A stretch of 64,000 nucleotides of DNA, taken from NCBI RefSeq assembly GCF_000497125.1, contig NC_090596.1:1054001-1118000 (forward strand), written 5' to 3'. The stretch's first letter is position 1; the number at the start of each line of letters is the position of its first letter. Under the pieces are notes generated by a model. That model saw nothing but the letters and a program-made list of their open reading frames with translations, did not search any database and was not told the origin of the DNA. Below are positions 18,901 through 42,471 of the stretch, one piece after another. Source of the stretch: Spironucleus salmonicida (taxonomy: Eukaryota). A program made the position numbers and the translations under genes.

Positions 18901-19446
18901 ATGGGCGAGACGGTCAGCAGGCTGAGCGACCGCGTCCGGACCGACCTGTAGAAGGTGGAGCAGGCGCAGGCCATCTTGGGGCACAAGCAGCCCCCGGAGG
19001 CGTCGGCGGTGATGGCGATGGCGAACCCCGTGCTCGTCGCGCAGCGCGCATCCCCGTCCCAGCCTGGGGTGCTGATGAAGAAGAACCAGAACGGTCGCGG
19101 GTGCCAGCCGGTCTCGGGCCTGTTCGCCCGGGACGAGGTTCTGCCGCCGCTGCTGGAGGACCAGCAGGCGCCCCTGCAGACGGCGCGGCCCAACCCGACC
19201 ATGGGAATGTCCGAGTTCGCGGTCAAGAAGATCGACACCGCGAAGCTGAAGCGGCAGGAGCATCCGGCGCACCTGGCCACCTCGCGCATATCGTCGCGGC
19301 CGTCCCAGATATTCGCGGCGCCGAGCAAAACGAAGCGGGGCGGGTCCATCATGGAGAAGATCGGAAGCAACCAGGTGGCGATCCGGCTGCCCAGCAGTGG
19401 GAGGACGATCCGGCTCACCATCGAGGGCGACGAGGAGATGGTCTGA
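18901..19446 (+). CDS. Hypothetical 181-aa protein (MGETVSRLSDRVRTDLQKVEQAQ...)
   Basis: ATG 18901, reads through TAG 18949-18951 into track ORF 18955-19446; high GC3. Confidence 0.7.
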
Positions 19447-19576
19447 GTGAGGTGCTTTCGCGGCACCCTTCCATTCTCGCGGGCGGGTATATTATGTGCT
19501 AATTGGCGCGCAGGCCAGAGCCGCGTCCGCATTCGGAGTGTATACTCGGCCCTCGCGGCGGGCCATCCCTCCGCAA

Positions 19577-19774
19577 ATGCACCTGCCGCTGCTCCTCGCG
19601 CACACGGGCACCCCGTCCCCGGCCCGGCGCTCCCCCGGCCTCGCGACGCTGCCCTACCTGCAGCAGTGCGGCCTGCGGAACCAGCGCCTGCGCTCCTCCC
19701 TGGACGAGAAGTGGGGCCAGTTCGAGGCCATCAAGGCCCGGATCCGCCGCACGGCCAGCGGGCTGCGCCAGTGA
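19577..19774 (+). CDS. Hypothetical basic 65-aa protein (MHLPLLLAHTG...)
   Basis: CCATCCCTCC upstream, high GC3, ends CAG-TGA. Confidence 0.55.
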   Translation: MHLPLLLAHTGTPSPARRSPGLATLPYLQQCGLRNQRLRSSLDEKWGQFEAIKARIRRTASGLRQ

Positions 19775-19785
19775 GCCTCGTTTTC

Positions 19786-20145
19786 TCACTCGCACGGCCG
19801 CTCCGGGTCTGGCGCGCGGCCCTTCAGACTGCAGCCCGGCGGCCGGGGGACCCGCCGCACCCGCGTCGGCCGGTGGGAGGGAGCCTCGTGCTGGCCCAGG
19901 AAGGCGCTGATCTCGTCCGCGCGCACGGCCTCGGTCCTCTGGCGCACCTGCTGCGCCTTGATGCGCGCGATGTCCTGGCGCAAGACGACTGCGGCTGGCT
20001 TGGCCTGCTCGGGCGGGTTGGTGAAGTGCAGCGAGGGCAGCTGCCGCACGGGGTCGTACCTGCCGACCTGCAGGAGCCGGGTCTGGAGGTTGACGGCGGC
20101 GCGGTTCTGCGCGTACTGCTTCTTGAGGTGCTTCGCGGCCATCAT
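19786..20145 (-). CDS. Hypothetical basic 119-aa protein (MMAAKHLKKQYAQ...)
   Basis: C-rich upstream motif, high GC3, ends GAG-TGA. Confidence 0.6.
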   Translation of the reverse strand: MMAAKHLKKQYAQNRAAVNLQTRLLQVGRYDPVRQLPSLHFTNPPEQAKPAAVVLRQDIARIKAQQVRQRTEAVRADEISAFLGQHEAPSHRPTRVRRVPRPPGCSLKGRAPDPERPCE

Positions 20146-20261
20146 GGGGCAGGTGGCAGGGGGCGTATAATAACTAATATCGGTGTTCGGCGAAAGACCG
20201 CATACTGGCTAATACACGCACTCCACATGGGACGGCGCGGGCCAAAAGATAAACCAAGAGA

Positions 20262-21989
20262 TCACTGCGCGTAGTCGAACTGCATCTTGAAGTGGTGCAG
20301 GCTGAGCTGCCTGAGGCCGGCACGGTCCACCACGCCACGGATGTCCGCCCTGCAGTCGAAGAGGAACTTGATCCAGAGCGCGGCTGCGTCCAGGTCCGAG
20401 TCGCTGTAGAGCTGCCTGGGGATCGCGAGGCGCACGAAGTTCCCGCTGACGGCCTCCACGCTCTTGTAGGGCGCGTTGCCGTGGGGCGAGTAGAACGCGG
20501 AGACGCCGAGCTCGCAGCCGCGGATGCCCTTCGCGAGCATGAGGCCGACGAGGGCGTTGCCGAGGAACTGGGCGCGCTTGTCCCTGCCGAAGAACCTGTC
20601 CACGTCGATGTACACCGCGGAGGTGCCGCAGGGGTCGAGCACGGGGATGCCGAGCGCCTTGAGCTGGGCCGCGAACCGCTGGACCTGGTCGATCCTGCCC
20701 TTGAGGTAGTTGAACTCCACGACCTGCTGGAGGCCCGCGCACGCCGCCTTGATGTCGCGGCCGGTAAGGGCGCCGTAGGTGAAGTGGCCCACCTTGAGGA
20801 TGACGCCGTCCATGATCTGCTGGAGGATGCAGCCGGTCTCCTACCCCACGAACTGCCCGAAGTTAACCGACTCGGGGGCGAAGCATACCGCGCCGCCGCA
20901 GTTGGCGATGCCGTCCTTCTTGAGCGAGATGGTGAAGCCGTCCACGAGCGCGAAGGTCTTGTGCACGATCTCCCGGACGGACAGGGGCGAGTCCTCGATG
21001 GTCTTGATGAGGTAGGCGTTCTCGGCGAAGCGGCAGGCGTCCATGATGTAGGGGATACCGTGCTTCTTACAGAGGGCCGACACCGCCTCGATGTGCTGCA
21101 GCGACACGGGCTGGGAGCCGCCGGAGTTGTTGGTGATCGTGGTGAATACGATCGCGGTCTTCCCGGGGGCGGCCTCCACGTTGCGGCTGAGCAGCTCGAA
21201 GTCCCCGTCGCCGAGGTACTTGTCAGATGCGCAGTAGGTGCCATCGCGCACCTTGGGGTTGGGGTGGTTCATGAGGTTGAAGGTGACGCGGACGGTCTTG
21301 CCGTCGGGCGCGCGGAACGGCTTGTCCGTGATGTCCAGAATGTGGCCCGAGGTGGTGTCGAAGAAGTTGTTCGTGCAGATGACGTTGTAGTCGACTGCGC
21401 CCTCGATGGTCCGGTAGTCGCGGTTGACGAGGGCCTGTGCGAGTGCGGGGAACAGCTGGTTCTCGGCGCCGCGGCCCTGGTTGACGATGTAGTTGAAGTT
21501 CTTGCGGAGCTTGTACTGCTCGTTGAGGGCCTGGTTGCGGTGCTTGCCCAGGAACACCGAGGCGTAGCGCTCACCGAAGATGTCGGCCATGGTGTCGTTG
21601 AACTGGTACCAGCCCTCGTTGGAGCCGTAGGACTCGTCTCCCTGCATCATCTGGCCCCACTGCGCGGTGGTCATGGCGGAGGAGCCGGAGTCCGAGAGGA
21701 AGTCCACCTCGAGGTGGTCGGCGGGCATGTAGAAGGAGTTGAGCCCGACCTCGATGACCTTGGCGGCGCGGATCTGGAACTCTTCCCGGGGGTCCGCGGC
21801 CAGCTGGTTCTTGGGCTTGACCACGTGATTGATGAAGGGCCGGAAGGCGGAGTTGAGCGCCTGGGCCATCACGAGGAGCTCCGGGGGGATCTGGCTGACC
21901 CTGTCGGCCTGGGTAGTCTTCCAGGCCTCGAAGCGGTCGTAGAAGGACGTGAGGTAGGCGAGCTGCTGGGCGGGTTCCATGGCCTGCAT
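20262..21989 (-). CDS. tnaA: Tryptophanase (PLP-dependent beta-eliminating lyase), 575 aa, copy 1
   Basis: Track ORFs 20841-21989 and 20262-20813 are one frame joined by TAG = Gln. Motifs: DFLSDSG, GDESY, QGRGAE, NNFFDTTSGH, TNNSGGSQPVS, DACRFAENAY, SLKKDG (PLP Lys), VRLAIPR, LHHF. FDTT and xHF favour TnaA over tyrosine phenol-lyase. Confidence 0.9.
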
Positions 21990-22225
21990 TTTATGGGGGA
22001 AGGATTGAAAACGGGAGCGAAAAATTAGTCATGCTTTCGGGGCGGCAGGCGATTCCGAGGAAACTTAAGAATACTTCGAAATGAACTGTACAACGGCGGG
22101 AGAATATCGGTATGAAGGGGAAAAGTTGGTCACCAATTATAAGTAGTTGTGCGAGTGGATACAATTTGGGCCCGCAAGGAGTGCACCACTCCGATCTGAT
22201 TTGTGATTTGGTGAGAAAGCAAGGG

Positions 22226-22579
22226 TCACTTGGCGAGCATGGCGACGATGTCCTCCTCGATGGTCGCCTTGGGGCTCTCGACGATCCTGCCGACCTCCTG
22301 CGCGCCCTTGAAGACGACGAGGGTGGGGATGTTGGTGACCCCGAGGCGCTTGGCGATGCCCTGGGGGTCGTTCTTCTGCCTGTCGACCACGACGTCGACG
22401 ATCTTGACGGCGGGGAGCGCGGCCACGATCTTCTTCAGCAGGGGCAGCGTGTAGGTGCAGTCGCCGCACCAGTCGGCGTGCACGACGGTGATGCTAAGGT
22501 CCTTGTGGGCCTGGAGGGCGGCCACGGCGGCGGCGACGGGCTCGTACCAGTCTGAGGTTTCGTACTGCGCGTAGTTCAT
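22226..22579 (-). CDS. Thioredoxin-family protein (WCGDC), 117 aa, copy 1
   Basis: MNYAQYETSDW...HADWCGDC...TNIPTLVVFKGAQEVGRIVESP; CxxC plus cis-Pro IPT motif. Confidence 0.88.
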   Translation of the reverse strand: MNYAQYETSDWYEPVAAAVAALQAHKDLSITVVHADWCGDCTYTLPLLKKIVAALPAVKIVDVVVDRQKNDPQGIAKRLGVTNIPTLVVFKGAQEVGRIVESPKATIEEDIVAMLAK

Positions 22580-22632
22580 GCGGGTGGAGCGGTGATTTAA
22601 AACCGATCGGGCCGCAAGCGTATAATACAGTG

Positions 22633-23436
22633 TCACATTCCCATCACCACGCGCTTCACCCACATCGCGCCCGCCTCCCTCTTGAGCACCAGCACCAGCC
22701 GGCGCTCGCCCACGAACACGCTCGGGTTCCAGCCCACGCCCAGCAGCGCCCCCAGCTGCCCGTGCTGCCGCAGCGCCTCCTGCACCGCCCGGAAGCCGAA
22801 GTGGCCCGCGACCCCCGCGCCCTCGCCGGCCTGCGCGTAGCTGGCGGACACCTGGCTCATCTGCGTCCCGAGCTGCAGCGTCTTCACGCCCTCCGCGTGC
22901 AGCACCGCCACCTCCACGGTCTCGTCGCCCTCCACCAGCAGGCCGAAGAGCTGCGGCGCCCGCGCGAACAGCTGGAACTCCTGGCTGGGCGCGCCGTCGC
23001 CGAGCCCGTCCTCGACCATCTGCAGCTCCTGGACGACCGCGTTCAGGCTCTGGTTGCGCAGAAACCCGATCGGCACCTGCAGCTTCGCCTCGATCGCGTG
23101 CTCCGCGAAGTCGCTGCCCTCCTGGAAGAAGCGGGCGTCCAGGAAGGGCTTGTCGCCGGCCTCCTGGGTGAGAACGAAGCTTGCGTCGAAGTCCTGGAGG
23201 TTCTCGAGTTGGAAGATGCGGGAGAAGCGCACGCCCACCGGGTGCGAGCCGGCGAGGTCCAGGGCGCTGAAGAGGAAGGAGCTGGCGAGGCTGTAGACGC
23301 CGCCGGCCTGGGGGTCGAAGACCTGCACGGTGGCGGAGGTGGGCCGGAAGATGAAGACCGCGGTGTCCGAGAGCAGCGCCAGCAGCTGGGTGAACTGCTG
23401 GAGGTGCCGCGCCGTGAGGTAGAGCCGCAGGTGCAT
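22633..23436 (-). CDS. 267-aa protein, possible PCNA/9-1-1 (Hus1/Rad9/Rad1)-like clamp subunit, copy 1
   Basis: The ORF itself is solid (CCACTCCACA-ATG, high GC3). The fold call is inferred only from length and an N-terminal strand-helix-strand pattern (MHLRLYLT..HLQQFTQLLALLSDTAVFIFRP...GGVYSLASSFLF). Confidence 0.5.
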   Translation of the reverse strand: MHLRLYLTARHLQQFTQLLALLSDTAVFIFRPTSATVQVFDPQAGGVYSLASSFLFSALDLAGSHPVGVRFSRIFQLENLQDFDASFVLTQEAGDKPFLDARFFQEGSDFAEHAIEAKLQVPIGFLRNQSLNAVVQELQMVEDGLGDGAPSQEFQLFARAPQLFGLLVEGDETVEVAVLHAEGVKTLQLGTQMSQVSASYAQAGEGAGVAGHFGFRAVQEALRQHGQLGALLGVGWNPSVFVGERRLVLVLKREAGAMWVKRVVMGM

Positions 23437-23454
23437 TGTGGAGTGGGACTACGC

Positions 23455-24429
23455 TCACTGCACCGCGTTGAAGAAGTACTGCCGCTGCTCCGCGCCGTCG
23501 TAGCAGACGAACTTGCCGCGCTGGCACATCTCCTCCAGCCAGTCCACCTCGAAGCCCGTGAAGTCGCCCTGGCGCAGGAAGCGGAAGCCGTGCAGCTCGC
23601 ACGTCCGGCCGCGGATGCGCTCGTTGATGTCCGCCGCGAAGCTCCGGTCCAGGAGGTACTTCCGCCCGTTCAGCACCTTCACCGCCCAGCCGTCCAGCCC
23701 CTCGCACACCCGGACCATCGCGTCGGGCGCGATCAGGTTCCCGCTGCGCGCCTTGTTCCAGCGCCCGTACACGCGGTCCAGCGGCATGATGCCGCGCGCC
23801 TGCATCCGGCCCAGCACCCCGCCCAGCTCGTCCCGGAGGCGGGGCAGGTCGCGCGCGGGGCTCTGGATCTGCAGGTCCAGCTCCTGGTCGATCAGCGCCA
23901 CCTCGCCCTTGAGCGCGTCGTCCTGGAACCGGTTCTGGGCGATCACGCGGCGGATCTTGGCGATCAGCTCCAGCAGCGACGCCGCGTTCTGCTGCAGCTG
24001 CGCGAAGGTGTTCGAGGAGGTCGATATCGCGAACTAAAGTGCGTTGGTGAGCGCCTGCTCGCGCTGCTGCACTGGGAGGGCGGAGATAAATTTCCGGGCG
24101 GACACCTGCTGCATGGTCGCGTTGAAAAACTCGGCCAGAGCCGCAGGAGTCGCAAAGCCATGCAGGGCGTACCGCTTCGGGCCAAAGTACAGGGTGATGC
24201 CGGCGGGGGTCCTCTGCACGTTGGTCACGTCGTGGAGGTTAAAGCAGAAGAACGCGCCCTCCACCTGTAAGTGGAGGCTGGTCTGCGTCAGGAAAGCGCG
24301 CGCCTAGCACTCCTCGAAGCTCAGGGCCGCGTCCTGGAAGACTCTTTCGTCCGAGAGTAGATACGGGGCGTGGCGGTCGGACTCGGCGTGGGTGGAGAAA
24401 TTTAGAGGGCGGAACCGCTTGATGTCCAT
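23455..24429 (-). CDS. VPS36: ESCRT-II subunit Vps36/EAP45, 324 aa, copy 1
   Basis: ATG 24429 (MDIKRFRP), two TAG = Gln. N-terminal PH/GLUE-like region, then GIMPLDRVYGRWNKARSGNLIAPDAMVRVC matching Vps36 G-I-x-x-L-x-x-VY-x-x-x-N-R-AR...L-x-x-P. Confidence 0.78.
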
Positions 24430-24788
24430 TCTGGCATTGGGGCGATTGGTATATAATATATTTGGCCACTGGGGAAAATGCATCGCTCACGGTCCTAGCG
24501 TCGCCAGGCCTTGGGCGTACGCCCTCTCGGCGGAATTGGGGTCCCAATGCCGCAAGCAGCTGCCTAGCCAGCCCTGCTGCGAAGTATCCGGCCCGGGAAC
24601 AGGCTGCGGCCAGCACCTTGCCCACTTAGCAAGCGGCATCGTACCGGACCGGGCGTGGCCAGCTGGGCAGCTCTGCGATACGCTCCCCTGCCATCCTGGT
24701 GTGGGGTATGGGACCTACGTAACGATGCCCGAGATTCCGGGGAGAGCGCATTTGCAGCAGAGAGGCATGGGCATGAAATTAGAAAAGG

Positions 24789-24920
24789 TCACTTCTTGCA
24801 CTGGCCCTCGGTGCAGCACTTCTTCTCTTCGTTGCACTTCTTAACGGTGCAATTCTTGTCGGTGCACTCCTTCTTCTCCTGGCAGCATTCTTTCTTGTCC
24901 TAGCAGCACTTACCCTCCAT
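24789..24920 (-). CDS. Metallothionein-like Cys-rich peptide, type 2 (43 aa), copy 1
   Basis: MEGKCCQDKKECCQEKKECTDKNCTVKKCNEEKKCCTEGQCKK*; 10 Cys; codon 7 is TAG; ends AAG-TGA. Confidence 0.75.
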
Positions 24921-25703
24921 TGATCGAGGAAGGGGTCACCAAATCTGGAAGGAATATGCGAGTATATTCGGATAATACGCCCATGCCCGCGATATACGAT
25001 TTCGTATTGTAGGCCACCCCGTTGACGTATACTGCTAAGGGAAGTAGTGTTAGGAAACTAAATCTATTTATAGTACACGGGATACACATGTAAATTAATA
25101 TCCTATCTATTGTAGATATTTTCGTATAGTAAATATAGGTAATATTGCTGCCTTCTATATGTTGTATATTTGGCAGCAGTATACGTAAATGCGGTCCTAG
25201 CTTCGCTGCCGTTCACTTTAACGCGTGCTAGTTTTATAGTTTCAGCGGCGAATGATTATTCATGTAACCTGCTAGAAGCATGGGCATTGCCGCGCGGGGA
25301 TACCCAATACCTTGCTTTGCGGGGAGCTAGCAATCGCGCCGGAGCAGAGGGCGTAGAAGATAAGCCTCTGCACGAGGTGAATCTCAGCGTCATGTGTTCT
25401 GCACTCGCGTTCAATGTTTCACTCCACCGCTGCTCTTTCCCACAGAGCCAGAGCAGCCGTCCCACGCCATCCGGTGCCTGCCATCCCTTGCCGCCATGTG
25501 TCCAAGCACTCCGAACAACTCTACTCGGCAAAACAGCACTTCCTCAAATTGACCTACAATAGGCCAATTAATATTCTACGCATATCTTTAAATCTATTTA
25601 TTATATAATTATAGCAGATATTTTCACTCCAGTCCCAAAATAGGTACTACTTATTATTATGCAATAATATATCGTTTTTATAACGCGCCTTTCTTTCTTC
25701 ATA

Positions 25704-27498: not shown

Positions 27499-28301
27499 TA
27501 TTAATGGGTGTTGTGATATTTTAGTTTTATTACATGGAGTGGTAAACTGCTATATAAATGTATAATAATAAGTAGTACCTATTTTGGGACTGGAGTGAAA
27601 ATATCTGCTATAATTATATAATAAATAGATTTAAAGATATGCGTAGAATATTAATTGGCCTATTGTAGGTCAATTTGAGGAAGTGCTGTTTTGCCGAGTA
27701 GAGTTGTTCGGAGTGCTTGGACACATGGCGGCAAGGGATGGCAGGCACCGGATGGCGTGGGACGGCTGCTCTGGCTCTGTGGGAAAGAGCAGCGGTGGAG
27801 TGAAACATTGAACGCGAGTGCAGAACACATGACGCTGAGATTCACCTCGTGCAGAGGCTTATCTTCTACGCCCTCTGCTCCGGCGCGATTGCTAGCTCCC
27901 CGCAAAGCAAGGTATTGGGTATCCCCGCGCGGCAATGCCCATGCTTCTAGCAGGTTACATGAATAATCATTCGCCGCTGAAACTATAAAACTAGCACGCG
28001 TTAAAGTGAACGGCAGCGAAGCTAGGACCGCATTTACGTATACTGCTGCCAAATATACAACATATAGAAGGCAGCAATATTACCTATATTTACTATACGA
28101 AAATATCTACAATAGATAGGATATTAATTTACATGTGTATCCCGTGTACTATAAATAGATTTAGTTTCCTAACACTACTTCCCTTAGCAGTATACGTCAA
28201 CGGGGTGGCCTACAATACGAAATCGTATACCGCGGGCATGGGCGTATTATCCGAATATACTCGGATATTCCTTCCAGATTTGGTGACCCCTTCCTCGATC
28301 A

Positions 28302-28433
28302 ATGGAGGGTAAGTGCTGCTAGGACAAGAAAGAATGCTGCCAGGAGAAGAAGGAGTGCACCGACAAGAATTGCACCGATAAGAAGTGCAACGAAGAGAAG
28401 AAGTGCTGCACCGAGGGCCAGTGCAAGAAGTGA
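28302..28433 (+). CDS. Metallothionein-like peptide type 2, copy 2
   Basis: MEGKCCQDKKECCQEKKECTDKNCTDKKCNEEKKCCTEGQCKK*. Confidence 0.75.
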
Positions 28434-28792
28434 CCTTTTCTAATTTCATGCCCATGCCTCTCTGCTGCAAATGCGCTCTCCCCGGAATCTCGGGCATCGT
28501 TACGTAGGTCCCATACCCCACACCAGGATGGCAGGGGAGCGTATCGCAGAGCTGCCCAGCTGGCCACGCCCGGTCCGGTACGATGCCGCTTGCTAAGTGG
28601 GCAAGGTGCTGGCCGCAGCCTGTTCCCGGGCCGGATACTTCGCAGCAGGGCTGGCTAGGCAGCTGCTTGCGGCATTGGGACCCCAATTCCGCCGAGAGGG
28701 CGTACGCCCAAGGCCTGGCGACGCTAGGACCGTGAGCGATGCATTTTCCCCAGTGGCCAAATATATTATATACCAATCGCCCCAATGCCAGA

Positions 28793-29767
28793 ATGGACAT
28801 CAAGCGGTTCCGCCCTCTAAATTTCTCCACCCACGCCGAGTCCGACCGCCACGCCCCGTATCTACTCTCGGACGAAAGAGTCTTCCAGGACGCGGCCCTG
28901 AGCTTCGAGGAGTGCTAGGCGCGCGCTTTCCTGACGCAGACCAGCCTCCACTTACAGGTGGAGGGCGCGTTCTTCTGCTTTAACCTCCACGACGTGACCA
29001 ACGTGCAGAGGACCCCCGCCGGCATCACCCTGTACTTTGGCCCGAAGCGGTACGCCCTGCATGGCTTTGTGACTCCTGCGGCTCTGGCCGAGTTTTTCAA
29101 CGCGACCATGCAGCAGGTGTCCGCCCGGAAATTTATCTCCGCCCTCCCGGTGCAGCAGCGCGAGCAGGCGCTCACCAACGCACTTTAGTTCGCGATATCG
29201 ACCTCCTCGAACACCTTCGCGCAGCTGCAGCAGAACGCGGCGTCGCTGCTGGAGCTGATCGCCAAGATCCGCCGCGTGATCGCCCAGAACCGGTTCCAGG
29301 ACGACGCGCTCAAGGGCGAGGTGGCGCTGATCGACCAGGAGCTGGACCTGCAGATCCAGAGCCCCGCGCGCGACCTGCCCCGCCTCCGGGACGAGCTGGG
29401 CGGGGTGCTGGGCCGGATGCAGGCGCGCGGCATCATGCCGCTGGACCGCGTGTACGGGCGCTGGAACAAGGCGCGCAGCGGGAACCTGATCGCGCCCGAC
29501 GCGATGGTCCGGGTGTGCGAGGGGCTGGACGGCTGGGCGGTGAAGGTGCTGAACGGGCGGAAGTACCTCCTGGACCGGAGCTTCGCGGCGGACATCAACG
29601 AGCGCATCCGCGGCCGGACGTGCGAGCTGCACGGCTTCCGCTTCCTGCGCCAGGGCGACTTCACGGGCTTCGAGGTGGACTGGCTGGAGGAGATGTGCCA
29701 GCGCGGCAAGTTCGTCTGCTACGACGGCGCGGAGCAGCGGCAGTACTTCTTCAACGCGGTGCAGTGA
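28793..29767 (+). CDS. VPS36: Vps36/EAP45, copy 2
   Basis: Mirror of 23455-24429. Confidence 0.78.
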
Positions 29768-29785
29768 GCGTAGTCCCACTCCACA

Positions 29786-30589
29786 ATGCACCTGCGGCTC
29801 TACCTCACGGCGCGGCACCTCCAGCAGTTCACCCAGCTGCTGGCGCTGCTCTCGGACACCGCGGTCTTCATCTTCCGGCCCACCTCCGCCACCGTGCAGG
29901 TCTTCGACCCCCAGGCCGGCGGCGTCTACAGCCTCGCCAGCTCCTTCCTCTTCAGCGCCCTGGACCTCGCCGGCTCGCACCCGGTGGGCGTGCGCTTCTC
30001 CCGCATCTTCCAACTCGAGAACCTCCAGGACTTCGACGCAAGCTTCGTTCTCACCCAGGAGGCCGGCGACAAGCCCTTCCTGGACGCCCGCTTCTTCCAG
30101 GAGGGCAGCGACTTCGCGGAGCACGCGATCGAGGCGAAGCTGCAGGTGCCGATCGGGTTTCTGCGCAACCAGAGCCTGAACGCGGTCGTCCAGGAGCTGC
30201 AGATGGTCGAGGACGGGCTCGGCGACGGCGCGCCCAGCCAGGAGTTCCAGCTGTTCGCGCGGGCGCCGCAGCTCTTCGGCCTGCTGGTGGAGGGCGACGA
30301 GACCGTGGAGGTGGCGGTGCTGCACGCGGAGGGCGTGAAGACGCTGCAGCTCGGGACGCAGATGAGCCAGGTGTCCGCCAGCTACGCGCAGGCCGGCGAG
30401 GGCGCGGGGGTCGCGGGCCACTTCGGCTTCCGGGCGGTGCAGGAGGCGCTGCGGCAGCACGGGCAGCTGGGGGCGCTGCTGGGCGTGGGCTGGAACCCGA
30501 GCGTGTTCGTGGGCGAGCGCCGGCTGGTGCTGGTGCTCAAGAGGGAGGCGGGCGCGATGTGGGTGAAGCGCGTGGTGATGGGAATGTGA
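29786..30589 (+). CDS. Possible PCNA/9-1-1-like protein, copy 2
   Basis: Mirror of 22633-23436. Confidence 0.5.
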   Translation: MHLRLYLTARHLQQFTQLLALLSDTAVFIFRPTSATVQVFDPQAGGVYSLASSFLFSALDLAGSHPVGVRFSRIFQLENLQDFDASFVLTQEAGDKPFLDARFFQEGSDFAEHAIEAKLQVPIGFLRNQSLNAVVQELQMVEDGLGDGAPSQEFQLFARAPQLFGLLVEGDETVEVAVLHAEGVKTLQLGTQMSQVSASYAQAGEGAGVAGHFGFRAVQEALRQHGQLGALLGVGWNPSVFVGERRLVLVLKREAGAMWVKRVVMGM

Positions 30590-30642
30590 CACTGTATTAT
30601 ACGCTTGCGGCCCGATCGGTTTTAAATCACCGCTCCACCCGC

Positions 30643-30996
30643 ATGAACTACGCGCAGTACGAAACCTCAGACTGGTACGAGCCCGTCGCCGCCGCCGTGG
30701 CCGCCCTCCAGGCCCACAAGGACCTCAGCATCACCGTCGTGCACGCCGACTGGTGCGGCGACTGCACCTACACGCTGCCCCTGCTGAAGAAGATCGTGGC
30801 CGCGCTCCCCGCCGTCAAGATCGTCGACGTCGTGGTCGACAGGCAGAAGAACGACCCCCAGGGCATCGCCAAGCGCCTCGGGGTCACCAACATCCCCACC
30901 CTCGTCGTCTTCAAGGGCGCGCAGGAGGTCGGCAGGATCGTCGAGAGCCCCAAGGCGACCATCGAGGAGGACATCGTCGCCATGCTCGCCAAGTGA
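30643..30996 (+). CDS. WCGDC thioredoxin-family protein, copy 2
   Basis: Mirror of 22226-22579. Confidence 0.88.
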   Translation: MNYAQYETSDWYEPVAAAVAALQAHKDLSITVVHADWCGDCTYTLPLLKKIVAALPAVKIVDVVVDRQKNDPQGIAKRLGVTNIPTLVVFKGAQEVGRIVESPKATIEEDIVAMLAK

Positions 30997-31232
30997 CCCT
31001 TGCTTTCTCACCAAATCACAAATCAGATCGGAGTGGTGCACTCCTTGCGGGCCCAAATTGTATCCACTCGCACAACTACTTATAATTGGTGACCAACTTT
31101 TCCCCTTCATACCGATATTCTCCCGCCGTTGTACAGTTAGCTTCGAAGTATTCTTAAGTTTCCTCGGAATCGCCTGCCGCCCCGAAAGCATGACTAATTT
31201 TTCGCTCCCGTTTTCAATCCTTCCCCCATAAA

Positions 31233-32960
31233 ATGCAAGCCATGGAACCCGCCCAGCAGCTCGCCTACCTCACGTCCTTCTACGACCGCTTCGAGGCCTG
31301 GAAGACTACCCAGGCCGACAGGGTCAGCCAGATCCCCCCGGAGCTCCTCGTGATGGCCCAGGCGCTCAACTCCGCCTTCCGGCCCTTCATCAATCACGTG
31401 GTCAAGCCCAAGAACCAGCTGGCCGCGGACCCCCGGGAAGAGTTCCAGATCCGCGCCGCCAAGGTCATCGAGGTCGGGCTCAACTCCTTCTACATGCCCG
31501 CCGACCACCTCGAGGTGGACTTCCTCTCGGACTCCGGCTCCTCCGCCATGACCACCGCGCAGTGGGGCCAGATGATGCAGGGAGACGAGTCCTACGGCTC
31601 CAACGAGGGCTGGTACCAGTTCAACGACACCATGGCCGACATCTTCGGTGAGCGCTACGCCTCGGTGTTCCTGGGCAAGCACCGCAACCAGGCCCTCAAC
31701 GAGCAGTACAAGCTCCGCAAGAACTTCAACTACATCGTCAACCAGGGCCGCGGCGCCGAGAACCAGCTGTTCCCCGCACTCGCACAGGCCCTCGTCAACC
31801 GCGACTACCGGACCATCGAGGGCGCAGTCGACTACAACGTCATCTGCACGAACAACTTCTTCGACACCACCTCGGGCCACATCCTGGACATCACGGACAA
31901 GCCGTTCCGCGCGCCCGACGGCAAGACCGTCCGCGTCACCTTCAACCTCATGAACCACCCCAACCCCAAGGTGCGCGATGGCACCTACTGCGCATCTGAC
32001 AAGTACCTCGGCGACGGGGACTTCGAGCTGCTCAGCCGGAACGTGGAGGCCGCCCCCGGGAAGACCGCGATCGTATTCACCACGATCACCAACAACTCCG
32101 GCGGCTCCCAGCCCGTGTCGCTGCAGCACATCGAGGCGGTGTCGGCCCTCTGTAAGAAGCACGGTATCCCCTACATCATGGACGCCTGCCGCTTCGCCGA
32201 GAACGCCTACCTCATCAAGACCATCGAGGACTCGCCCCTGTCCGTCCGGGAGATCGTGCACAAGACCTTCGCGCTCGTGGACGGCTTCACCATCTCGCTC
32301 AAGAAGGACGGCATCGCCAACTGCGGCGGCGCGGTATGCTTCGCCCCCGAGTCGGTTAACTTCGGGCAGTTCGTGGGGTAGGAGACCGGCTGCATCCTCC
32401 AGCAGATCATGGACGGCGTCATCCTCAAGGTGGGCCACTTCACCTACGGCGCCCTTACCGGCCGCGACATCAAGGCGGCGTGCGCGGGCCTCCAGCAGGT
32501 CGTGGAGTTCAACTACCTCAAGGGCAGGATCGACCAGGTCCAGCGGTTCGCGGCCCAGCTCAAGGCGCTCGGCATCCCCGTGCTCGACCCCTGCGGCACC
32601 TCCGCGGTGTACATCGACGTGGACAGGTTCTTCGGCAGGGACAAGCGCGCCCAGTTCCTCGGCAACGCCCTCGTCGGCCTCATGCTCGCGAAGGGCATCC
32701 GCGGCTGCGAGCTCGGCGTCTCCGCGTTCTACTCGCCCCACGGCAACGCGCCCTACAAGAGCGTGGAGGCCGTCAGCGGGAACTTCGTGCGCCTCGCGAT
32801 CCCCAGGCAGCTCTACAGCGACTCGGACCTGGACGCAGCCGCGCTCTGGATCAAGTTCCTCTTCGACTGCAGGGCGGACATCCGTGGCGTGGTGGACCGT
32901 GCCGGCCTCAGGCAGCTCAGCCTGCACCACTTCAAGATGCAGTTCGACTACGCGCAGTGA
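31233..32960 (+). CDS. tnaA: Tryptophanase, copy 2
   Basis: Mirror of 20262-21989; TAG (Gln) at 32379-32381. Confidence 0.9.
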
Positions 32961-33076
32961 TCTCTTGGTTTATCTTTTGGCCCGCGCCGTCCCATGTGGA
33001 GTGCGTGTATTAGCCAGTATGCGGTCTTTCGCCGAACACCGATATTAGTTATTATACGCCCCCTGCCACCTGCCCC

Positions 33077-33436
33077 ATGATGGCCGCGAAGCACCTCAAG
33101 AAGCAGTACGCGCAGAACCGCGCCGCCGTCAACCTCCAGACCCGGCTCCTGCAGGTCGGCAGGTACGACCCCGTGCGGCAGCTGCCCTCGCTGCACTTCA
33201 CCAACCCGCCCGAGCAGGCCAAGCCAGCCGCAGTCGTCTTGCGCCAGGACATCGCGCGCATCAAGGCGCAGCAGGTGCGCCAGAGGACCGAGGCCGTGCG
33301 CGCGGACGAGATCAGCGCCTTCCTGGGCCAGCACGAGGCGCCCTCCCACCGGCCGACGCGGGTGCGGCGGGTCCCCCGGCCGCCGGGCTGCAGTCTGAAG
33401 GGCCGCGCGCCAGACCCGGAGCGGCCGTGCGAGTGA
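33077..33436 (+). CDS. 119-aa hypothetical, copy 2
   Basis: Mirror of 19786-20145. Confidence 0.6.
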   Translation: MMAAKHLKKQYAQNRAAVNLQTRLLQVGRYDPVRQLPSLHFTNPPEQAKPAAVVLRQDIARIKAQQVRQRTEAVRADEISAFLGQHEAPSHRPTRVRRVPRPPGCSLKGRAPDPERPCE

Positions 33437-33447
33437 GAAAACGAGGC

Positions 33448-33645
33448 TCACTGGCGCAGCCCGCTGGCCGTGCGGCGGATCCGGGCCTTGATGGCCTCGA
33501 ACTGGCCCCACTTCTCGTCCAGGGAGGAGCGCAGGCGCTGGTTCCGCAGGCCGCACTGCTGCAGGTAGGGCAGCGTCGCGAGGCCGGGGGAGCGCCGGGC
33601 CGGGGACGGGGTGCCCGTGTGCGCGAGGAGCAGCGGCAGGTGCAT
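33448..33645 (-). CDS. 65-aa hypothetical, copy 2
   Basis: Mirror of 19577-19774. Confidence 0.55.
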   Translation of the reverse strand: MHLPLLLAHTGTPSPARRSPGLATLPYLQQCGLRNQRLRSSLDEKWGQFEAIKARIRRTASGLRQ

Positions 33646-33775
33646 TTGCGGAGGGATGGCCCGCCGCGAGGGCCGAGTATACACTCCGAATGCGGACGCG
33701 GCTCTGGCCTGCGCGCCAATTAGCACATAATATACCCGCCCGCGAGAATGGAAGGGTGCCGCGAAAGCACCTCAC

Positions 33776-34321
33776 TCAGACCATCTCCTCGTCGCCCTCG
33801 ATGGTGAGCCGGATCGTCCTCCCACTGCTGGGCAGCCGGATCGCCACCTGGTTGCTTCCGATCTTCTCCATGATGGACCCGCCCCGCTTCGTTTTGCTCG
33901 GCGCCGCGAATATCTGGGACGGCCGCGACGATATGCGCGAGGTGGCCAGGTGCGCCGGATGGTCCTGCCGCTTCAGCTTCGCGGTGTCGATCTTCTTGAC
34001 CGCGAAGTCGGACATTCCCATGGTCGGGTTGGGCCGCGCCGTCTGCAGGGGCGCCTGCTGGTCCTCCAGCAGCGGCGGCAGAACCTCGTCCCGGGCGAAC
34101 AGGCCCGAGACCGGCTGGCACCCGCGACCGTTCTGGTTCTTCTTCATCAGCACCCCAGGCTGGGACGGGGATGCGCGCTGCGCGACGAGCACGGGGTTCG
34201 CCATCGCCATCACCGCCGACGCCTCCGGGGGCTGCTTGTGCCCCAAGATGGCCTGCGCCTGCTCCACCTTCTACAGGTCGGTCCGGACGCGGTCGCTCAG
34301 CCTGCTGACCGTCTCGCCCAT
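33776..34321 (-). CDS. 181-aa hypothetical, copy 2
   Basis: Mirror of 18901-19446. Confidence 0.7.
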
Positions 34322-36790
34322 GTCTGGCACGCGGGTTATTATATGGTGGTGGTAATTGTTGTCCCGTAGAATGCCCACTACTTTTTCGTAGCAACATGCA
34401 GGACTGCCACTACCCACGCCAGCGCCGCCGCTTATTCTAGGCCGGGCTGTGTACCTGGCTGGGCTCGTACGCCCGCCGCCCACGAGTCCATTCGGTCCCA
34501 CAGGACGCGCGGGCTCGGTGTGCCCTCGTCCGTCGCAGCCGCCCCTACCAGAGAGTGAAATTCGACGAATGGGTCCCGTGCTAGGTGGGGTAAAGTCGTG
34601 GGCCGGACATGGGCCTGCAGAGCCCAATTCCCGCGACTACGGGAAACTCCGAATCTCCCTATCACTGCATCTGCACCAAATTCCCCAAAGCATCCAAAGG
34701 AGCAGCATATCATCGCCTGCATGGTAGGTCTGAGCTGTGGCACCTAGCACCCAGCTTATATGTCACCATAAGGAGGTCAATCTTCCACAAAAGGCTTTCA
34801 GCATTGTTACTAGCTTATCCTCTACGCCGCAGTGGAAGAGGCGAACGTCGCCTTCTTGGCGGCTAGGCTATCGAAGGGTGTTCAAATTGGAATAAGAATT
34901 CATATGTGCGAGGAGCTACACGGCTATCCCGAATAAGGTACTACGGCTGGTTAACTACCACACCAGAACCACATTTTACTGCGTTGCGCTTTTGGAAATT
35001 ATATTTATATAAGTATTTTAAACGTAGAGTGCCCTCGTGAAGAAAGCATAACGTTTCAGACTCATTCCCGGTGGTCAGCAAAGTGTACAGGACCTCGCTG
35101 CGCTGGCATCTAGTACTTACAACAGATAGCGTATGCCATCCGGTTGGTGATCCCTGGACCTAGGAATTTACTGCGACAAAACTCTCGGGACACGATGCGC
35201 GGAGAAACTACCAGGCGCTTGAGGTATTTTGCAAGCCGTGTTCATGTTTGGATCCACGGTCGGTGCTCTGAAGGTAATATTGCACTGCCTCCCAAATAAG
35301 CTCGCCTTGGGTCCCTCGGCGTAGATTCTGAAGGGCTAAGATCAAATACCTTGGCTGCACCCTTGAAGCAGTGCCACGTTGCGGGACGCCGTCCAAGGCT
35401 TTAACCGCATACGGTGTGGTGTCTCCGCTGCCCTTCGTGGTTCAGATCTAGCACGCGCGAGCTTCCAGTACGAATGAGCAGTAGACGCCCCTGGAGGACA
35501 GGCGCCCGCTTTGCAGCTGAACATGTTGCGGCAGAGTGGCAAGAATACTAAGCCGTACGACTCTTCTGACCTGTGCGTCGATGCGCAAATGAGGGCCGCC
35601 ATGCCACCAGCAGCAGGAGGCACGTAGGCCTAAGCTTAATCTTAAAATCACGCGAATTTGTCCATTAGGCTAGCCCCAAAGCCCAACAACATTCCCAGCG
35701 CTCCGTTACCTTCGTAAACTAGCCATCCTGCTTCCTCAAACTACCTGACTACCCAGGTCAGTCGTTACTGAGCGTTATGACTATGAGTACGCGGATACAA
35801 TAGCTTTTAGCAACCCTGAAAAACTACCTTCGGCCATATGGATCGTTACTAGCTGCAGGCTCTCCCTCTAACGCACAGAAAGCCCCCACTCATCCAAACG
35901 TCGCCGACGTCCAAAATCTAAGGCAACACAATGTATACTAATATGCCCTATGTGGGGATATTTGCAAAATGTCCTAATTGGAATTTCATGCTACTACGCG
36001 TACGGAGACCCTCTACCAGGCCCAAGAAACCCAAACTAGCTATTAAATATATTGGCCGTATCTCGGAGTGAAATTCCGCGTGGACAGACCAAAATGTCTA
36101 ACTCGCTATTTGGAGGCTTGCTTGCGACCAAAATATTTTCTGAGAGTAGGGTTTCACATAGTTAGTAAGTATAGCTGCATTTGGTAAGACACTTGCTCGA
36201 TGGAAATGACTCGCGAAGACTAATATTCTATCCAGGTATCAGTTTTTAGTGCAATTTTGGCAAGCTTTCTAGCACTTCGCCAGCTAAACGTTGACGAAAG
36301 GGGGTCTAGTTTACGCGCTAAGACGTACTAAACACTCCATCTCACAGGGTGGAAACAGCACTGAGCAGCTGCGCCAGAGCGTGCTCTGCGGTTGCGACTC
36401 GGAGGCATCAGCTAGTATTTAGTGCTAGCTCCACAGCACCATGCGCACTATGATTGCATAAATTTTATGCCCATCCTGCAGAGGACGGAGCTCAGGACCA
36501 AGGTGGGCGTAAGGGATGTTTCGAATCCCAGTGGTAGCATGACTAGGCGGCCTTGCGTAGTGCCCTTCTTCGCAGACCGCTGCGTGGTAGTGTTTGCTGT
36601 CGATATACGTCTAGGATGGATATAGGCTATATATGCTGTAGACTGGCTCGGATAGCACTACTACTCTGCCTTCCCCGCGGCGAACACGGTCTGGGAGAGT
36701 TGCGGCTAGTAATATGGTGCCGGGGTTCTGCTTCATTCGTGCGGGGCTCTACGCGAGTAGGGCGGTGAAAATGGTATACAAGTAAGGTCG

Positions 36791-37033
36791 TCACTGGCCC
36801 AGCTCCACCTCGCCGAGCGCCTCCAGGAAGGCGCTGAGGTCCAGGTCCATGAGGTTGCTGCACTGCCGCGTCCGCGCCCCGCCCCGCGCCTGCTCCGACA
36901 GCTCCGGGGTCTCCGCGGCGCCCTGCTACGCCACGCGCTGCACCAGGACCAGCTCGATCGCCGGCACCGCCACCTTGCCGCTGAGGGCGTTCTCGAAGTC
37001 CTCCAGCCTGCTGCTCTGCGCGCACGTCCCCAT
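36791..37033 (-). CDS. 80-aa hypothetical, copy 3
   Basis: Mirror of 16189-16431. Confidence 0.65.
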
Positions 37034-37144
37034 TTCGGGAGGGCGAGTGGATAATCCGAGGCCGCTGTTTCTGCCGCGGCGGCGATTTGTGTTCCGGGCA
37101 TCTACAGTGTTTCGGTCGCGGGCGGATGGGGTGCTGGCCCGCCC

Positions 37145-37561
37145 TCAGAGGTACACTGCGAGGCTGGAGAGGGCGAGGAAGGCGAGGGCGGCGAGCACCC
37201 CGAGGTTGGAGCAGAGCCCCGCCGTGGCTGCCGCGCCGCCCGCGGGGTTGGGGTAGCCCGGCAGCCGGAGCGCGGCGAGCGCGGCGTCGAACTGGCGCTT
37301 GACCCAGAAGTTCAGCAGCTGGTACGCGAGGAACGCGGCCAGCAGGGCGGTGGTGGAGAAGATGACCGTGAGCCCGAGGGCCTGGTCGCGCAGAGTGAGC
37401 CCGTTGAAGGCCATGATGAAGTAGCACGCTGCGAGGGACACCAGCAGGACCGCCGCGTCGTTCTGCTGCTTGTGGAGGAACTCGCTCATGGACACGCGGT
37501 ACTCGTAGTCCTGCAGCGAGGGCACCTGCGAGGCGGTCAGGATCGTGGACTGTGCTCCCAT
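37145..37561 (-). CDS. 138-aa multi-TM orphan, second intact copy
   Basis: Mirror of 15661-16077. Confidence 0.75.
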   Translation of the reverse strand: MGAQSTILTASQVPSLQDYEYRVSMSEFLHKQQNDAAVLLVSLAACYFIMAFNGLTLRDQALGLTVIFSTTALLAAFLAYQLLNFWVKRQFDAALAALRLPGYPNPAGGAAATAGLCSNLGVLAALAFLALSSLAVYL

Positions 37562-39285: not shown

Positions 39286-39415
39286 GTGAGGTGCTTTCGC
39301 GGCACCCTTCCATTCTCGCGGGCGGGTATATTATGTGCTAATTGGCGCGCAGGCCAGAGCCGCGTCCGCATTCGGAGTATATACTCGGCCCTCGCGGCGG
39401 GCCATCCCTCCGCAA

Positions 39416-39613: not shown

Positions 39614-39624
39614 GCCTCGTTTTC

Positions 39625-42418: not shown

Positions 42419-42471
42419 GCGGGTGGAGCGGTGATTTAAAACCGATCGGGCCGCAAGCGTATAATACAGTG

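What the first reader, a model, noticed from the sequence alone, without database searches (positions are those of the whole stretch)
28302..28433. Hidden family of five metallothionein-like micro-genes (two paralogues)
Seen: type 1 (46 aa, 9 Cys) at 4994-5134(-) and 11661-11801(+); type 2 (43 aa, 10 Cys) at 24789-24920(-), 28302-28433(+) and 44628-44759(-). Both start MEGKCCQ(E/D)KKECCQ, end ...C-K-(Q/K), are Lys/Glu-rich, lack Phe/Trp/Tyr, and carry the local gene signals (C-rich motif before ATG, AGTGA stop). They are missed by the ORF track because they are short and type 2 has a TAG at codon 7. Established: tiny, aromatic-free, ~20% Cys peptides with CC clusters are typical of metallothioneins, such as ciliate Cd-metallothioneins. 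Inference: an amplified metal/thiol-redox buffering system. I know of no described diplomonad metallothionein but cannot verify that.
Basis: partly seen in the sequence, partly recalled or inferred. Interest (0 to 1): 0.85.

Follow-up and report, generated by a model that had tools for sequence, protein, structure and literature searches.

The report
Tiny cysteine-rich genes in Spironucleus
A salmon parasite's genome carries five copies of two tiny genes for cysteine-packed, metallothionein-like peptides; the genes look real but are drawn too long in public annotations, and whether they bind metal has not been tested.

Summary
They amount to two paralogues: type 1 (46 aa, 9 Cys, two identical copies) and type 2 (43 aa, 10 Cys, three copies, one with D26V). 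The copies sit inside segmental duplications that are at least 99.2% identical. The two types share sequence only from 15 nt before the ATG to 13 nt after the TGA. In the first 14 codons, 5 of 6 differences are silent in this frame alone, including CAG/TAG, which supports coding and code 6. Both carry a C-rich pre-ATG motif and an AGTGA stop. They are only partly hidden. Type 2 is the tail of EST48931.1/SS50377_10836, a 100-aa "Cysteine-rich protein" of Spironucleus salmonicida, and type 1 is the tail of a 116-aa public ORF. Both N-terminal extensions look spurious. The peptides meet the compositional criteria for metallothioneins. However, they match no metallothionein family, have no CxC or CxxC motif, and SS50377_10836 is not induced by oxygen in published RNA-seq. 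I rate real micro-genes at about 0.8 and a metal/thiol buffer role at about 0.35-0.4.

The parts
28302..28433 (+). Type 2 micro-gene, 43 codons plus TGA (10 Cys; TAG=Gln at codon 7)
   Evidence: Translation. There is an in-frame TGA 6 codons before the ATG. GC1/2/3 = 0.33/0.35/0.86. In-frame 21-nt and 15-nt tandem modules.
24789..24920 (-). Type 2 copy in the other palindrome arm, with one change (D26V)
44628..44759 (-). Type 2 copy in the third 6.35-kb repeat. Its protein is identical to the 28302 copy. Similarity to the other copies ends 93 nt upstream of the ATG.
11661..11801 (+). Type 1 micro-gene, 46 codons plus TGA (9 Cys, 4 CC doublets)
   Evidence: Translation. GC1/2/3 = 0.54/0.46/0.93. 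It forms the C-terminal 46 residues of the public 116-aa ORF P0004.
4994..5134 (-). Type 1 copy, identical protein. The 654-bp duplicated unit ends about 30 nt after the stop.
28287..28296 (+). C-rich pre-ATG stretch of type 2 (CCCCTTCCTC, -15 to -6). Similarity to type 1 begins here.
   Evidence: PMC3916229 describes a C-rich motif about 10 bp upstream of start codons that is linked to high expression (passage).
11640..11655 (+). C-rich pre-ATG stretch of type 1, containing CCGCTCC at 11647-11653
   Evidence: CCRCTCC occurs 23 times in the window against 12.0 expected. Eleven of the 23 lie 4-16 nt before a start codon: type 1 x2, the 267-aa gene x3, thioredoxin x3, L22, the CRMP-like gene and the DEAD-box gene.
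28429..28446 (+). AGTGA stop/poly(A)-type signal of type 2, plus the 13 nt after the stop that are still similar to type 1
   Evidence: PMC3916229 reports AGTGA overlapping the stop, with the poly(A) tail about 14 bp downstream (passage).
11797..11814 (+). AGTGA stop/poly(A)-type signal of type 1 plus the conserved 13 nt
28133..28301 (+). Upstream stretch that the 2014 gene model (EST48931.1, 100 aa) reads as an N-terminal extension with a predicted signal peptide. In the window it lies in a different frame from the micro-ORF and is probably promoter/5' flank.
   Evidence: P0006 residues 1-53 lie in frame 2, 53-58 in frame 1 and 59-100 in frame 0. GC3 of the extension is 0.50 against 0.86 in the micro-ORF.
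11451..11660 (+). Upstream stretch that the public 116-aa model (P0004) reads as an N-terminal extension. It is probably not coding.
   Evidence: five TAA/TAG codons in 70 codons against none in the 46-codon micro-ORF. It overlaps the divergent gene 11180-11500(-) and shows no similarity to the type 2 upstream region.
14876..25677 (.). Left arm of a 10.8-kb GC-rich inverted duplication that carries one type 2 copy
   Evidence: 99.667% over 10,803 bp; GC profile
27544..38346 (.). Right arm of the inverted duplication, carrying the type 2 copy of the finding
38500..44852 (.). Third 6.35-kb copy of the inner part of the arm, carrying the third type 2 copy
   Evidence: 99.67-99.86%

Best explanation
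The five loci are copies of two paralogous, independently transcribed micro-genes of Spironucleus salmonicida, 43 and 46 codons long. Each is a unit of about 160-170 nt: a C-rich promoter-type motif just before the ATG, a short ORF read with TAG=Gln, and a TGA inside the AGTGA stop/poly(A) signal. The products have no signal peptide or hydrophobic segment, so they should stay in the cytosol. They are aromatic-free, rich in Lys, Glu and Gln, and built from in-frame 7-residue (xKKxCCQ) and 5-residue (KKCTD-like) modules that place 9-10 cysteines mostly as CC doublets next to lysines.

The most likely role (inferred, not shown) is a metallothionein-like thiolate buffer: binding soft metal ions (Zn, Cd, Cu) and possibly mopping up oxidants in an organism without glutathione. 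Expression would be constitutive rather than oxygen-induced. Nine to ten thiolates would hold roughly three divalent ions, by analogy with the Cd7Cys20 stoichiometry quoted for standard metallothioneins.

The copy number (3 + 2) comes from the loci lying in near-identical GC-rich segmental duplications, not from targeted amplification. The longer public gene models (100 aa and 116 aa) are over-extensions.

Confidence by step: real coding micro-genes about 0.8; cytosolic about 0.7; metal/thiol buffering about 0.35-0.4. The confidence value given for this explanation is for the whole statement, including function.
For: Coding and gene boundaries:
- The type 1 and type 2 loci are similar only from -15 to +13 around the ORF (t1 11646-11814, t2 28287-28446; 65% over 172 columns, E 5e-15). 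Nothing further out is similar within +/-600 nt.
- In the ungapped first 14 codons, 6 nucleotide differences give 5 silent and 1 conservative (E/D) change in this frame. The other five frames give 0-3 silent changes. One silent change is CAG/TAG.
- The paralogues differ by a 9-nt (3-codon) indel, and 8 of the 9 type 1 Cys align with Cys in type 2.
- GC3 (0.86 and 0.93) far exceeds GC1 and GC2, as in the neighbouring genes with Pfam matches (GC3 0.90-0.96). The annotated N-terminal extensions have GC3 of 0.50 and 0.71.
- Type 2 has an in-frame TGA 6 codons upstream of its ATG, so it cannot be longer in this assembly.
- All tandem modules have periods that are multiples of three: 21, 15 and 9 nt.

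Gene signals:
- A C-rich motif sits at -6 to -21 and the stop is AGTGA, as at the L22, DEAD-box, thioredoxin and CRMP-like genes of the window.
- PMC3916229 links the C-rich motif to high expression and AGTGA to polyadenylation about 14 bp downstream (passages).

Transcription (weak evidence):
- The published model containing type 2, SS50377_10836, received fold changes and numeric adjusted p values in the RNA-seq table of PMC6397501 (supplement file 3, row 636).
- Its neighbour SS50377_10834 is the EAP30/Vps36 gene, as in the window.

Metallothionein-like character:
- 43 and 46 aa; 23.3% and 19.6% Cys; no aromatic residues. This lies within the definition quoted in PMC7216689.
- XCCX clusters and Lys next to Cys are described for Tetrahymena and mammalian metallothioneins in PMC4862169 (passages).
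- AlphaFold2 predicts no confident fold on its own (mean pLDDT 65 and 56, single sequence).
- PMC3916229 found no glutathione synthesis genes and takes cysteine to be the main thiol (passage).
Against: - No Pfam metallothionein family matches at E up to 10. The only match is granulin, below its cutoff (13.4-13.7 bits against 20.9).
- Nothing matches in the PDB by sequence.
- There are no CxC or CxxC motifs. The Cys clusters are separated by charged linkers of 4-12 residues, and Cys density is at the low end of the range quoted for metallothioneins.
- SS50377_10836 is not induced by oxygen (log2FC 0.42, padj 0.27) or by antioxidant withdrawal (0.26, padj 0.50). In the same table another small CRP, SS50377_16923 (7.9 kDa, 36% Cys, 13 CXC, 9 CXXC), is induced (log2FC 1.86 and 2.91). 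That protein is a more conventional metallothionein candidate in the same genome.
- With TGA as the only stop, a 46-codon open frame is unremarkable, and frame +1 is also open in both paralogues.
- The silent/replacement count rests on only 6 differences. In the last 12 codons, all 4 differing codons change the residue.
- No relative was found outside this species, so there is no cross-species test of selection.
- The RNA-seq quantification used the ORF +/-150 bp of a mis-drawn model (passage), so it does not show that the micro-ORF itself is transcribed or translated.
Confidence: 0.38

Rival explanations
1. The micro-genes are real and translated, but the peptides are not metal or thiol buffers. 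The CC doublets flanked by lysines could be S-acylation (palmitoylation) sites that tether a small regulatory peptide to membranes, or disulfide cross-linking sites of a structural or matrix peptide.
For: All the evidence for coding applies here too. The Cys pattern is only CC doublets and single Cys, without the CxC/CxxC chelating motifs that dominate most metallothioneins. The first CC doublet is at residues 5-6, next to Lys. There is no oxygen or antioxidant response. That dual cysteines near basic residues are typical S-acylation sites is recalled knowledge, not a tool result.
Against: There is no hydrophobic stretch and no myristoylation (N-terminal Met-Gly) or prenylation motif to bring the peptide to a membrane first. 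Acidic residues nearly balance the lysines. A cross-linking role outside the cell would need a signal peptide, which the 43- and 46-aa forms lack. No homology to any known acylated or structural family was found.
Confidence: 0.32
2. The micro-ORFs are not translated genes. They would be chance open frames in purine-rich, GC3-biased low-complexity DNA that is copied along with the segmental duplications.
For: Only TGA stops translation here, so short open frames are common: 206 ORFs of 30-80 aa and 192 ORFs of at least 100 aa in 64 kb, many clearly spurious. Frame +1 is open too. Copies within a type are near-identical only because the duplications are recent. No homologue exists outside the species.
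Against: Two diverged paralogues keep the same ATG, the same stop and 8 aligned Cys. Their similarity is confined to -15..+13. Five of 6 N-terminal differences are silent in this frame only. Gene-type signals are present at both ends. The indel and the repeats are in frame. Only 3 of 206 small ORFs reach 15% Cys, and all three are type 2 copies.
Confidence: 0.13
3. The longer public models are correct. Type 2 would be a 100-aa secreted cysteine-rich protein with a 24-residue signal peptide (EST48931.1), type 1 a 116-aa protein, and the Cys-rich part their C-terminal domain.
For: These models exist in public annotation, and the 100-aa one has a predicted signal peptide and an 'extracellular' call. 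It is listed as a CRP with one TM segment in Table S4 of PMC3916229.
Against: In the window the 100-aa model needs two +1 frame hops, each at a short homopolymer. All three type 2 copies instead have ATGGAGGG, as type 1 does, with an in-frame TGA upstream. The third copy loses similarity 93 nt upstream, before the model's start. The two extensions are unrelated to each other and have low GC3. The type 1 extension has five TAA/TAG codons in 70 and overlaps the neighbouring gene on the other strand.
Confidence: 0.07

Closest known systems
Metallothioneins as an operational class; within it the ciliate family 7a Cd-metallothioneins of Tetrahymena (PMC4862169, passages)
   Same: Small size, 20-23% Cys, no aromatic residues, XCCX doublets, Lys adjacent to Cys, and construction from short in-frame repeated modules. 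The host also reads TAG/TAA as Gln.
   Different: No sequence or profile similarity. There are no CCC, CxCC, CxC or CxxC clusters. Length is 43-46 aa against 78-191 aa. Cys density is lower than the 24-30% tabulated for CdMTs. Linkers are longer and charged. Metal binding and metal induction are untested, and there was no induction by oxygen.
'Cysteine-rich protein' (CRP) class of S. salmonicida (PMC3916229, Table S4), including SS50377_10836 itself and the 7.9-kDa, 36%-Cys SS50377_16923
   Same: Type 2 is the C-terminal 42 residues of SS50377_10836/EST48931.1 (98% identity over the whole query). That protein is filed as a CRP: 11.4 kDa, 12% Cys, 1 CXXC, 0 CXC.
   Different: The CRP class is a compositional bin (over 10% Cys, not CRMP), not a family. 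The published model is 100 aa with a predicted signal peptide, which the chromosome-scale sequence does not support. SS50377_16923 is CxC/CxxC-rich and oxygen-induced, unlike these genes. I did not see its sequence.
Granulin repeat (Pfam PF00396)
   Same: It is the only Pfam family that turned up at all. The match covers the stretch with the CC doublets (residues 2-24).
   Different: E-values are 0.07-0.09 and scores 13.4-13.7 bits against a cutoff of 20.9. Type 1 has no match. There is no signal peptide. I treat this as a compositional coincidence.
Predicted metallothioneins of other protists, e.g. three in Trichomonas (Table 1 of PMC7216689, partly seen)
   Same: Trichomonas belongs to the same supergroup (Metamonada), and its candidates were predicted by composition-type criteria.
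   Different: I did not see those sequences, so no comparison was possible. The text of that paper mentions no diplomonad genus.

Membership tests
Metallothionein (operational definition quoted in PMC7216689: small, 15-35% Cys, <10% aromatic) | Small size (at most 300 aa; classical forms 25-82 aa) | tested here: met
   43 and 46 aa; size ranges from passages
Metallothionein (operational definition) | Cys content 15-35% | tested here: met
   10 of 43 = 23.3% and 9 of 46 = 19.6%
Metallothionein (operational definition) | Few or no aromatic residues | tested here: met
   0 Phe, Trp or Tyr in both; one His in type 1
Metallothionein (operational definition) | Cys arranged in chelating clusters (CxC, CxxC, CC) | tested here: inconclusive
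   Type 1 has 4 CC doublets plus 1 single Cys. Type 2 has 3 CC doublets plus 4 single Cys. Neither has CxC or CxxC. XCCX is a recognised metallothionein cluster, but a CC-only pattern is atypical.
Metallothionein (operational definition) | Binds metal ions in metal-thiolate clusters with defined stoichiometry | not testable with these tools
   Needs recombinant or native peptide with ESI-MS/ICP
Metallothionein (operational definition) | Induced by metals or stress | tested here: inconclusive
   I found no metal-exposure data. In published oxygen and antioxidant-withdrawal RNA-seq, SS50377_10836 shows log2FC 0.42 and 0.26, neither significant. The quantification used a mis-drawn model.
Any curated metallothionein sequence family (Pfam) | Profile match at or near the gathering score | tested here: not met
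   No metallothionein family at E up to 10 for any of the 3 proteins
Ciliate metallothionein family 7a (Tetrahymena CdMT) | CCC/CxCC clusters in a strict module/submodule pattern; 78-191 aa | tested here: not met
   No CCC or CxCC; 43-46 aa
S. salmonicida CRP class (PMC3916229) | More than 10% Cys and not meeting the CRMP-1/2 criteria | tested here: met
   SS50377_10836 is listed as a CRP. The corrected 43- and 46-aa forms have 20-23% Cys and no TM segment.
Granulin (PF00396) | Score at or above the gathering cutoff of 20.9 bits | tested here: not met
   13.4-13.7 bits for type 2; no match for type 1

The most novel reading that the evidence does not exclude
These genes would be founders of a diplomonad-specific metallothionein family with a so far undescribed design: CC doublets only, on a Lys/Glu scaffold, about 45 residues long. 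That would make them the first metallothioneins of Fornicata. They would be constitutively expressed from a housekeeping-type C-rich promoter and would supply metal/thiol buffering in a glutathione-free anaerobe.
Probability: 0.3. Interest if true: 0.6.

Novelty: new variant of a known kind. Interest (0 to 1): 0.37.

Why it matters
Diplomonads lack glutathione and rely on cysteine, yet I found no paper that describes a dedicated metal- or thiol-buffer protein in them. A real family of 43-46-residue cysteine peptides would be a candidate for that role, and it can be tested directly with the tagging vectors that already exist for this parasite.

There is also a practical point. Both paralogues are mis-modelled in public annotation. 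One carries a false signal peptide that led localisation predictors to call it extracellular, which shows how code-6 genomes with a single stop codon inflate short genes. The significance is limited: the function is inferred from composition alone, the genes show no oxygen response, and the same genome holds a more conventional metallothionein-like candidate (SS50377_16923).

Tried and rejected
- Whole-genome search: no genome is held for this window. I therefore could not count copies outside the window or run tblastn on other diplomonads.
- Word-indexed protein search at near lengths: nothing for type 2 or type 1.
- Exhaustive HMMER search with type 1: 2 hits at E up to 0.001. One is the 116-aa self model P0004. 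The other is P0005 (895 aa, E 7e-4, 21 aligned residues in a repetitive protein), which I regard as chance.
- Metagenome scan with the alignment of both types: 398 pattern matches, none confirmed by tblastn. The first attempt with a single protein was rejected as too short.
- PDB sequence search: 0 hits at E up to 10 for both types.
- ESM Atlas: type 1 scored at best 0.81 against unnamed clusters, which is not informative. Type 2 was not accepted because it needs code 6.
- AlphaFold2 on single sequences: mean pLDDT 65 and 56, no confident fold. I ran no fold search on such models.
- Sequencing runs: no RNA holder listed.
- Rfam over the whole window: only two tRNAs (12124-12194 and 12597-12669, both on the minus strand) and nothing at the micro-gene loci.
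- Earlier notes of this scan: nothing at this place or with this sequence. The word search returned only micro-gene notes from other genomes.
- The idea of a helical Cys-stripe bundle, prompted by the heptad spacing of the first CC doublets, got no support from the models: only a short low-confidence helix.
- Reading the micro-ORF as an upstream ORF of the Vps36-like gene: rejected. Type 1 has different downstream neighbours at its two copies, and similarity between the types ends 13 nt after the stop.
- I sent no complex prediction, because the report claims no protein-protein binding.

Full report
**Observation.**
- Type 1 (46 aa, 9 Cys) lies at 4994-5134(-) and 11661-11801(+). The two copies are identical.
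- Type 2 (43 aa, 10 Cys) lies at 28302-28433(+) and 44628-44759(-), which are identical.
- A third type 2 copy at 24789-24920(-) carries one change (D26V).
- A six-frame scan for the shared motif found these five loci and no others in the window.
- Neither type has Phe, Trp or Tyr. Lys, Glu and Gln (plus Asp in type 2) make up 50-58% of the residues.
- Of 206 first-ATG-to-TGA ORFs of 30-80 aa in the window, only the three type 2 copies reach 15% Cys.

**Five loci, two genes.** A self-comparison shows that the type 2 copies lie in a 10.8-kb inverted duplication (14876-25677 against 27544-38346, 99.67%) and in a third 6.35-kb copy (38500-44852, 99.67-99.86%). The type 1 copies lie in a 654-bp inverted duplication (4965-5617 against 11178-11831, 99.24%). 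These blocks are GC-rich (0.5-0.7, against 0.22-0.45 elsewhere).

This agrees with earlier notes of this scan on GC-rich, near-identical repeats in the same genome. It also agrees with PMC9509377 (passages), which reports that 19.2% of the S. salmonicida assembly is duplicated at 95% identity or more, with mean GC of 44.7% against 30.7%. Identity between copies of one type therefore says nothing about selection. Only the comparison between type 1 and type 2 is informative.

**Are they genes?** With TGA as the only stop, open frames are cheap here: 192 ORFs of at least 100 aa occur in 64 kb. One is a 1055-aa ORF that runs across type 2 in another frame. It is Arg/Ala/Gly/Pro-rich and its GC3 (0.49) is below its GC1 (0.77). 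Only its last 117 residues, a thioredoxin at 30643-30996, look genuine. Openness alone is therefore not evidence.

The evidence for coding is the following:
1. The type 1 and type 2 loci are similar only from -15 to +13 around the ORF, and nowhere else within +/-600 nt.
2. In the ungapped first 14 codons, six differences give five silent changes and one E/D change in this frame. The other five frames give 0-3 silent changes. One of the silent changes is CAG/TAG, which also supports TAG=Gln.
3. The paralogues differ by a 3-codon indel, and 8 of the 9 type 1 Cys align with Cys in type 2.
4. GC3 (0.86 and 0.93) greatly exceeds GC1 and GC2, as in the neighbouring genes with Pfam matches.
5. The internal tandem modules have periods of 21, 15 and 9 nt.
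6. Both types have a C-rich stretch at -6 to -21 and end in AGTGA.

On point 6: CCRCTCC occurs 23 times in the window against 12.0 expected. Eleven of the 23 lie 4-16 nt before a start codon (type 1 x2, the 267-aa gene x3, thioredoxin x3, L22, the CRMP-like gene, the DEAD-box gene). I did not assign the other 12. PMC3916229 (passages) describes this C-rich motif about 10 bp before start codons, enriched at highly expressed genes. It also describes AGTGA as an overlapping stop/poly(A) signal with the tail about 14 bp downstream. The block conserved between the paralogues therefore coincides with the expected transcription unit.

Against this, the silent/replacement count rests on six differences, and in the last 12 codons all four differing codons change the residue. 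No relative outside the species is available either.

**Public annotation.** An exhaustive HMMER search with type 1 found a 116-aa protein (P0004; NCBI/UniRef; on a 1.92-Mb contig) whose last 46 residues are type 1. It is encoded at 11451-11801(+) and 4994-5344(-). Its 70-codon extension has five TAA/TAG codons, overlaps the divergent gene 11180-11500(-) and has GC3 of 0.71.

A word-indexed search for longer proteins found P0006 = EST48931.1 = SS50377_10836 = V6LYX2, a 100-aa 'Cysteine-rich protein' of Spironucleus salmonicida, 98% identical over all of type 2. Its residues 1-53, 53-58 and 59-100 lie in three different frames of the window. The older sequence must therefore differ by two single-base length changes at short homopolymers, one of which removes the ATG.

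All three type 2 copies here, and type 1, read ATGGAGGG, and type 2 has an in-frame TGA six codons upstream. I conclude that the short forms are right and that the predicted signal peptide and 'extracellular' call of the old model are artefacts. Table S4 of PMC3916229 lists SS50377_10836 as a CRP (11.4 kDa, 12% Cys, 1 CXXC, 0 CXC). The neighbouring SS50377_10834 is an EAP30/Vps36 protein, matching the window's Vps36-like gene at 28739-29767. No protein of 23-76 aa matching type 2 exists in the collection, so the corrected 43-aa gene appears to be unannotated.

**Expression.** In the published RNA-seq table of PMC6397501 (supplement file 3), SS50377_10836 has log2FC 0.42 (padj 0.27) under oxygen and 0.26 (padj 0.50) without antioxidants.

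Numeric adjusted p values suggest that reads were assigned to it; that DESeq2 leaves padj empty at very low counts is recalled knowledge. The quantification used the ORF +/-150 bp of the mis-drawn model (passage), so this is weak evidence of transcription. It is also evidence against oxygen induction. In the same table SS50377_16923, a 7.9-kDa CRP with 36% Cys, 13 CXC and 9 CXXC, is induced (log2FC 1.86 and 2.91). That protein is a more conventional metallothionein-like candidate in this genome.

**Function.** The peptides meet the compositional definition of metallothioneins quoted in PMC7216689. They share XCCX clusters, Lys next to Cys and a modular build with the Tetrahymena metallothioneins described in PMC4862169.

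They do not match any Pfam metallothionein family or any solved structure by sequence. They contain no CxC or CxxC, and they give no confident AlphaFold2 fold. They have no hydrophobic segment, so a cytosolic location is the simplest reading.

PMC3916229 reports no glutathione synthesis genes and mentions metallothioneins only as an analogy for the large membrane CRMPs. My best reading is a constitutive metallothionein-like thiolate buffer (about 0.35-0.4). The main rival is a real micro-protein with another use of its CC doublets, such as S-acylation or cross-linking (about 0.3). Chance ORFs (about 0.13) and the long annotated models (about 0.07) are less likely.

**Novelty.** Text searches for metallothionein together with Spironucleus, diplomonad, Giardia, Hexamita, Trepomonas or Fornicata found no description of a diplomonad metallothionein (one search lists 15 of 45 hits and one search lists 10 of 51). 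Table 1 of PMC7216689 lists predicted protist metallothioneins, including three in Trichomonas, and that paper's text contains no 'Giardia', 'Spironucleus' or 'Fornicata'.

The genes themselves are partly in the public record as 'cysteine-rich' or unnamed proteins. What is new is the corrected 43- and 46-aa gene models, the recognition that they are paralogues, and the metallothionein-like reading. I saw only passages and the named supplementary rows of the papers cited, and supplements I did not open could hold more.

Noticed in passing
window 14876-25677, 27544-38346, 38500-44852: A 10.8-kb inverted duplication with a 1.87-kb AT-rich spacer, plus a third 6.35-kb copy. All are 99.7-99.9% identical and GC-rich (0.5-0.7). 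Each carries the type 2 micro-gene, a Vps36-like gene, a 267-aa gene, a thioredoxin and a beta-eliminating lyase.
   Followed up: partly
window 27829-30996 (+) and its copies 22226-25393 (-), 42065-44989 (-): ORFs of 974-1055 aa under code 6 that are Arg/Ala/Gly/Pro-rich, with GC3 (0.49-0.50) below GC1 (0.77-0.81). Only the last 117 residues (30643-30996) are a real thioredoxin with its own CCGCTCC motif and AGTGA stop.
   Followed up: partly
window 11180-11500 (-) and 5295-5615 (+), compared with 15553-16077 (+) and 37145-37669 (-): The gene divergent from each type 1 copy encodes 106 aa, corresponding to the C-terminal two thirds of a 174-aa hydrophobic protein encoded in the big repeat arms (93-96% DNA identity). 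It is a shortened paralogue that shares a roughly 160-bp intergenic region with the micro-gene.
   Followed up: partly
not in the window (SS50377_16923; Table S4 of PMC3916229 and supplement file 3 of PMC6397501): A 7.9-kDa annotated CRP with 36% Cys, 13 CXC and 9 CXXC motifs. It is induced by oxygen (log2FC 1.86) and by antioxidant withdrawal (2.91). It looks like a more classical metallothionein candidate, but I found no paper discussing it as one.
   Followed up: partly
window 28284-28304, compared with protein P0006: The 2014 protein model implies two single-base length differences at short homopolymers relative to this assembly. They fuse an upstream frame to the micro-ORF and create a false signal peptide.
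   Followed up: yes
window 53385-54896 (-): A 503-aa CxxC-rich protein with a C-terminal hydrophobic segment and a basic tail, typical of diplomonad cysteine-rich membrane proteins. It has no Pfam match and has a CCACTCC motif 7-13 nt before its ATG.
   Followed up: no
window 12124-12194 (-) and 12597-12669 (-): Two tRNA genes just downstream of the type 1 copy at 11661.
   Followed up: no
window 6513-10236 and 47025-50748: A further 3.7-kb direct duplication (99.14%) that includes an amino-acid transporter gene. Unlike the other repeats it is not GC-rich.
   Followed up: no
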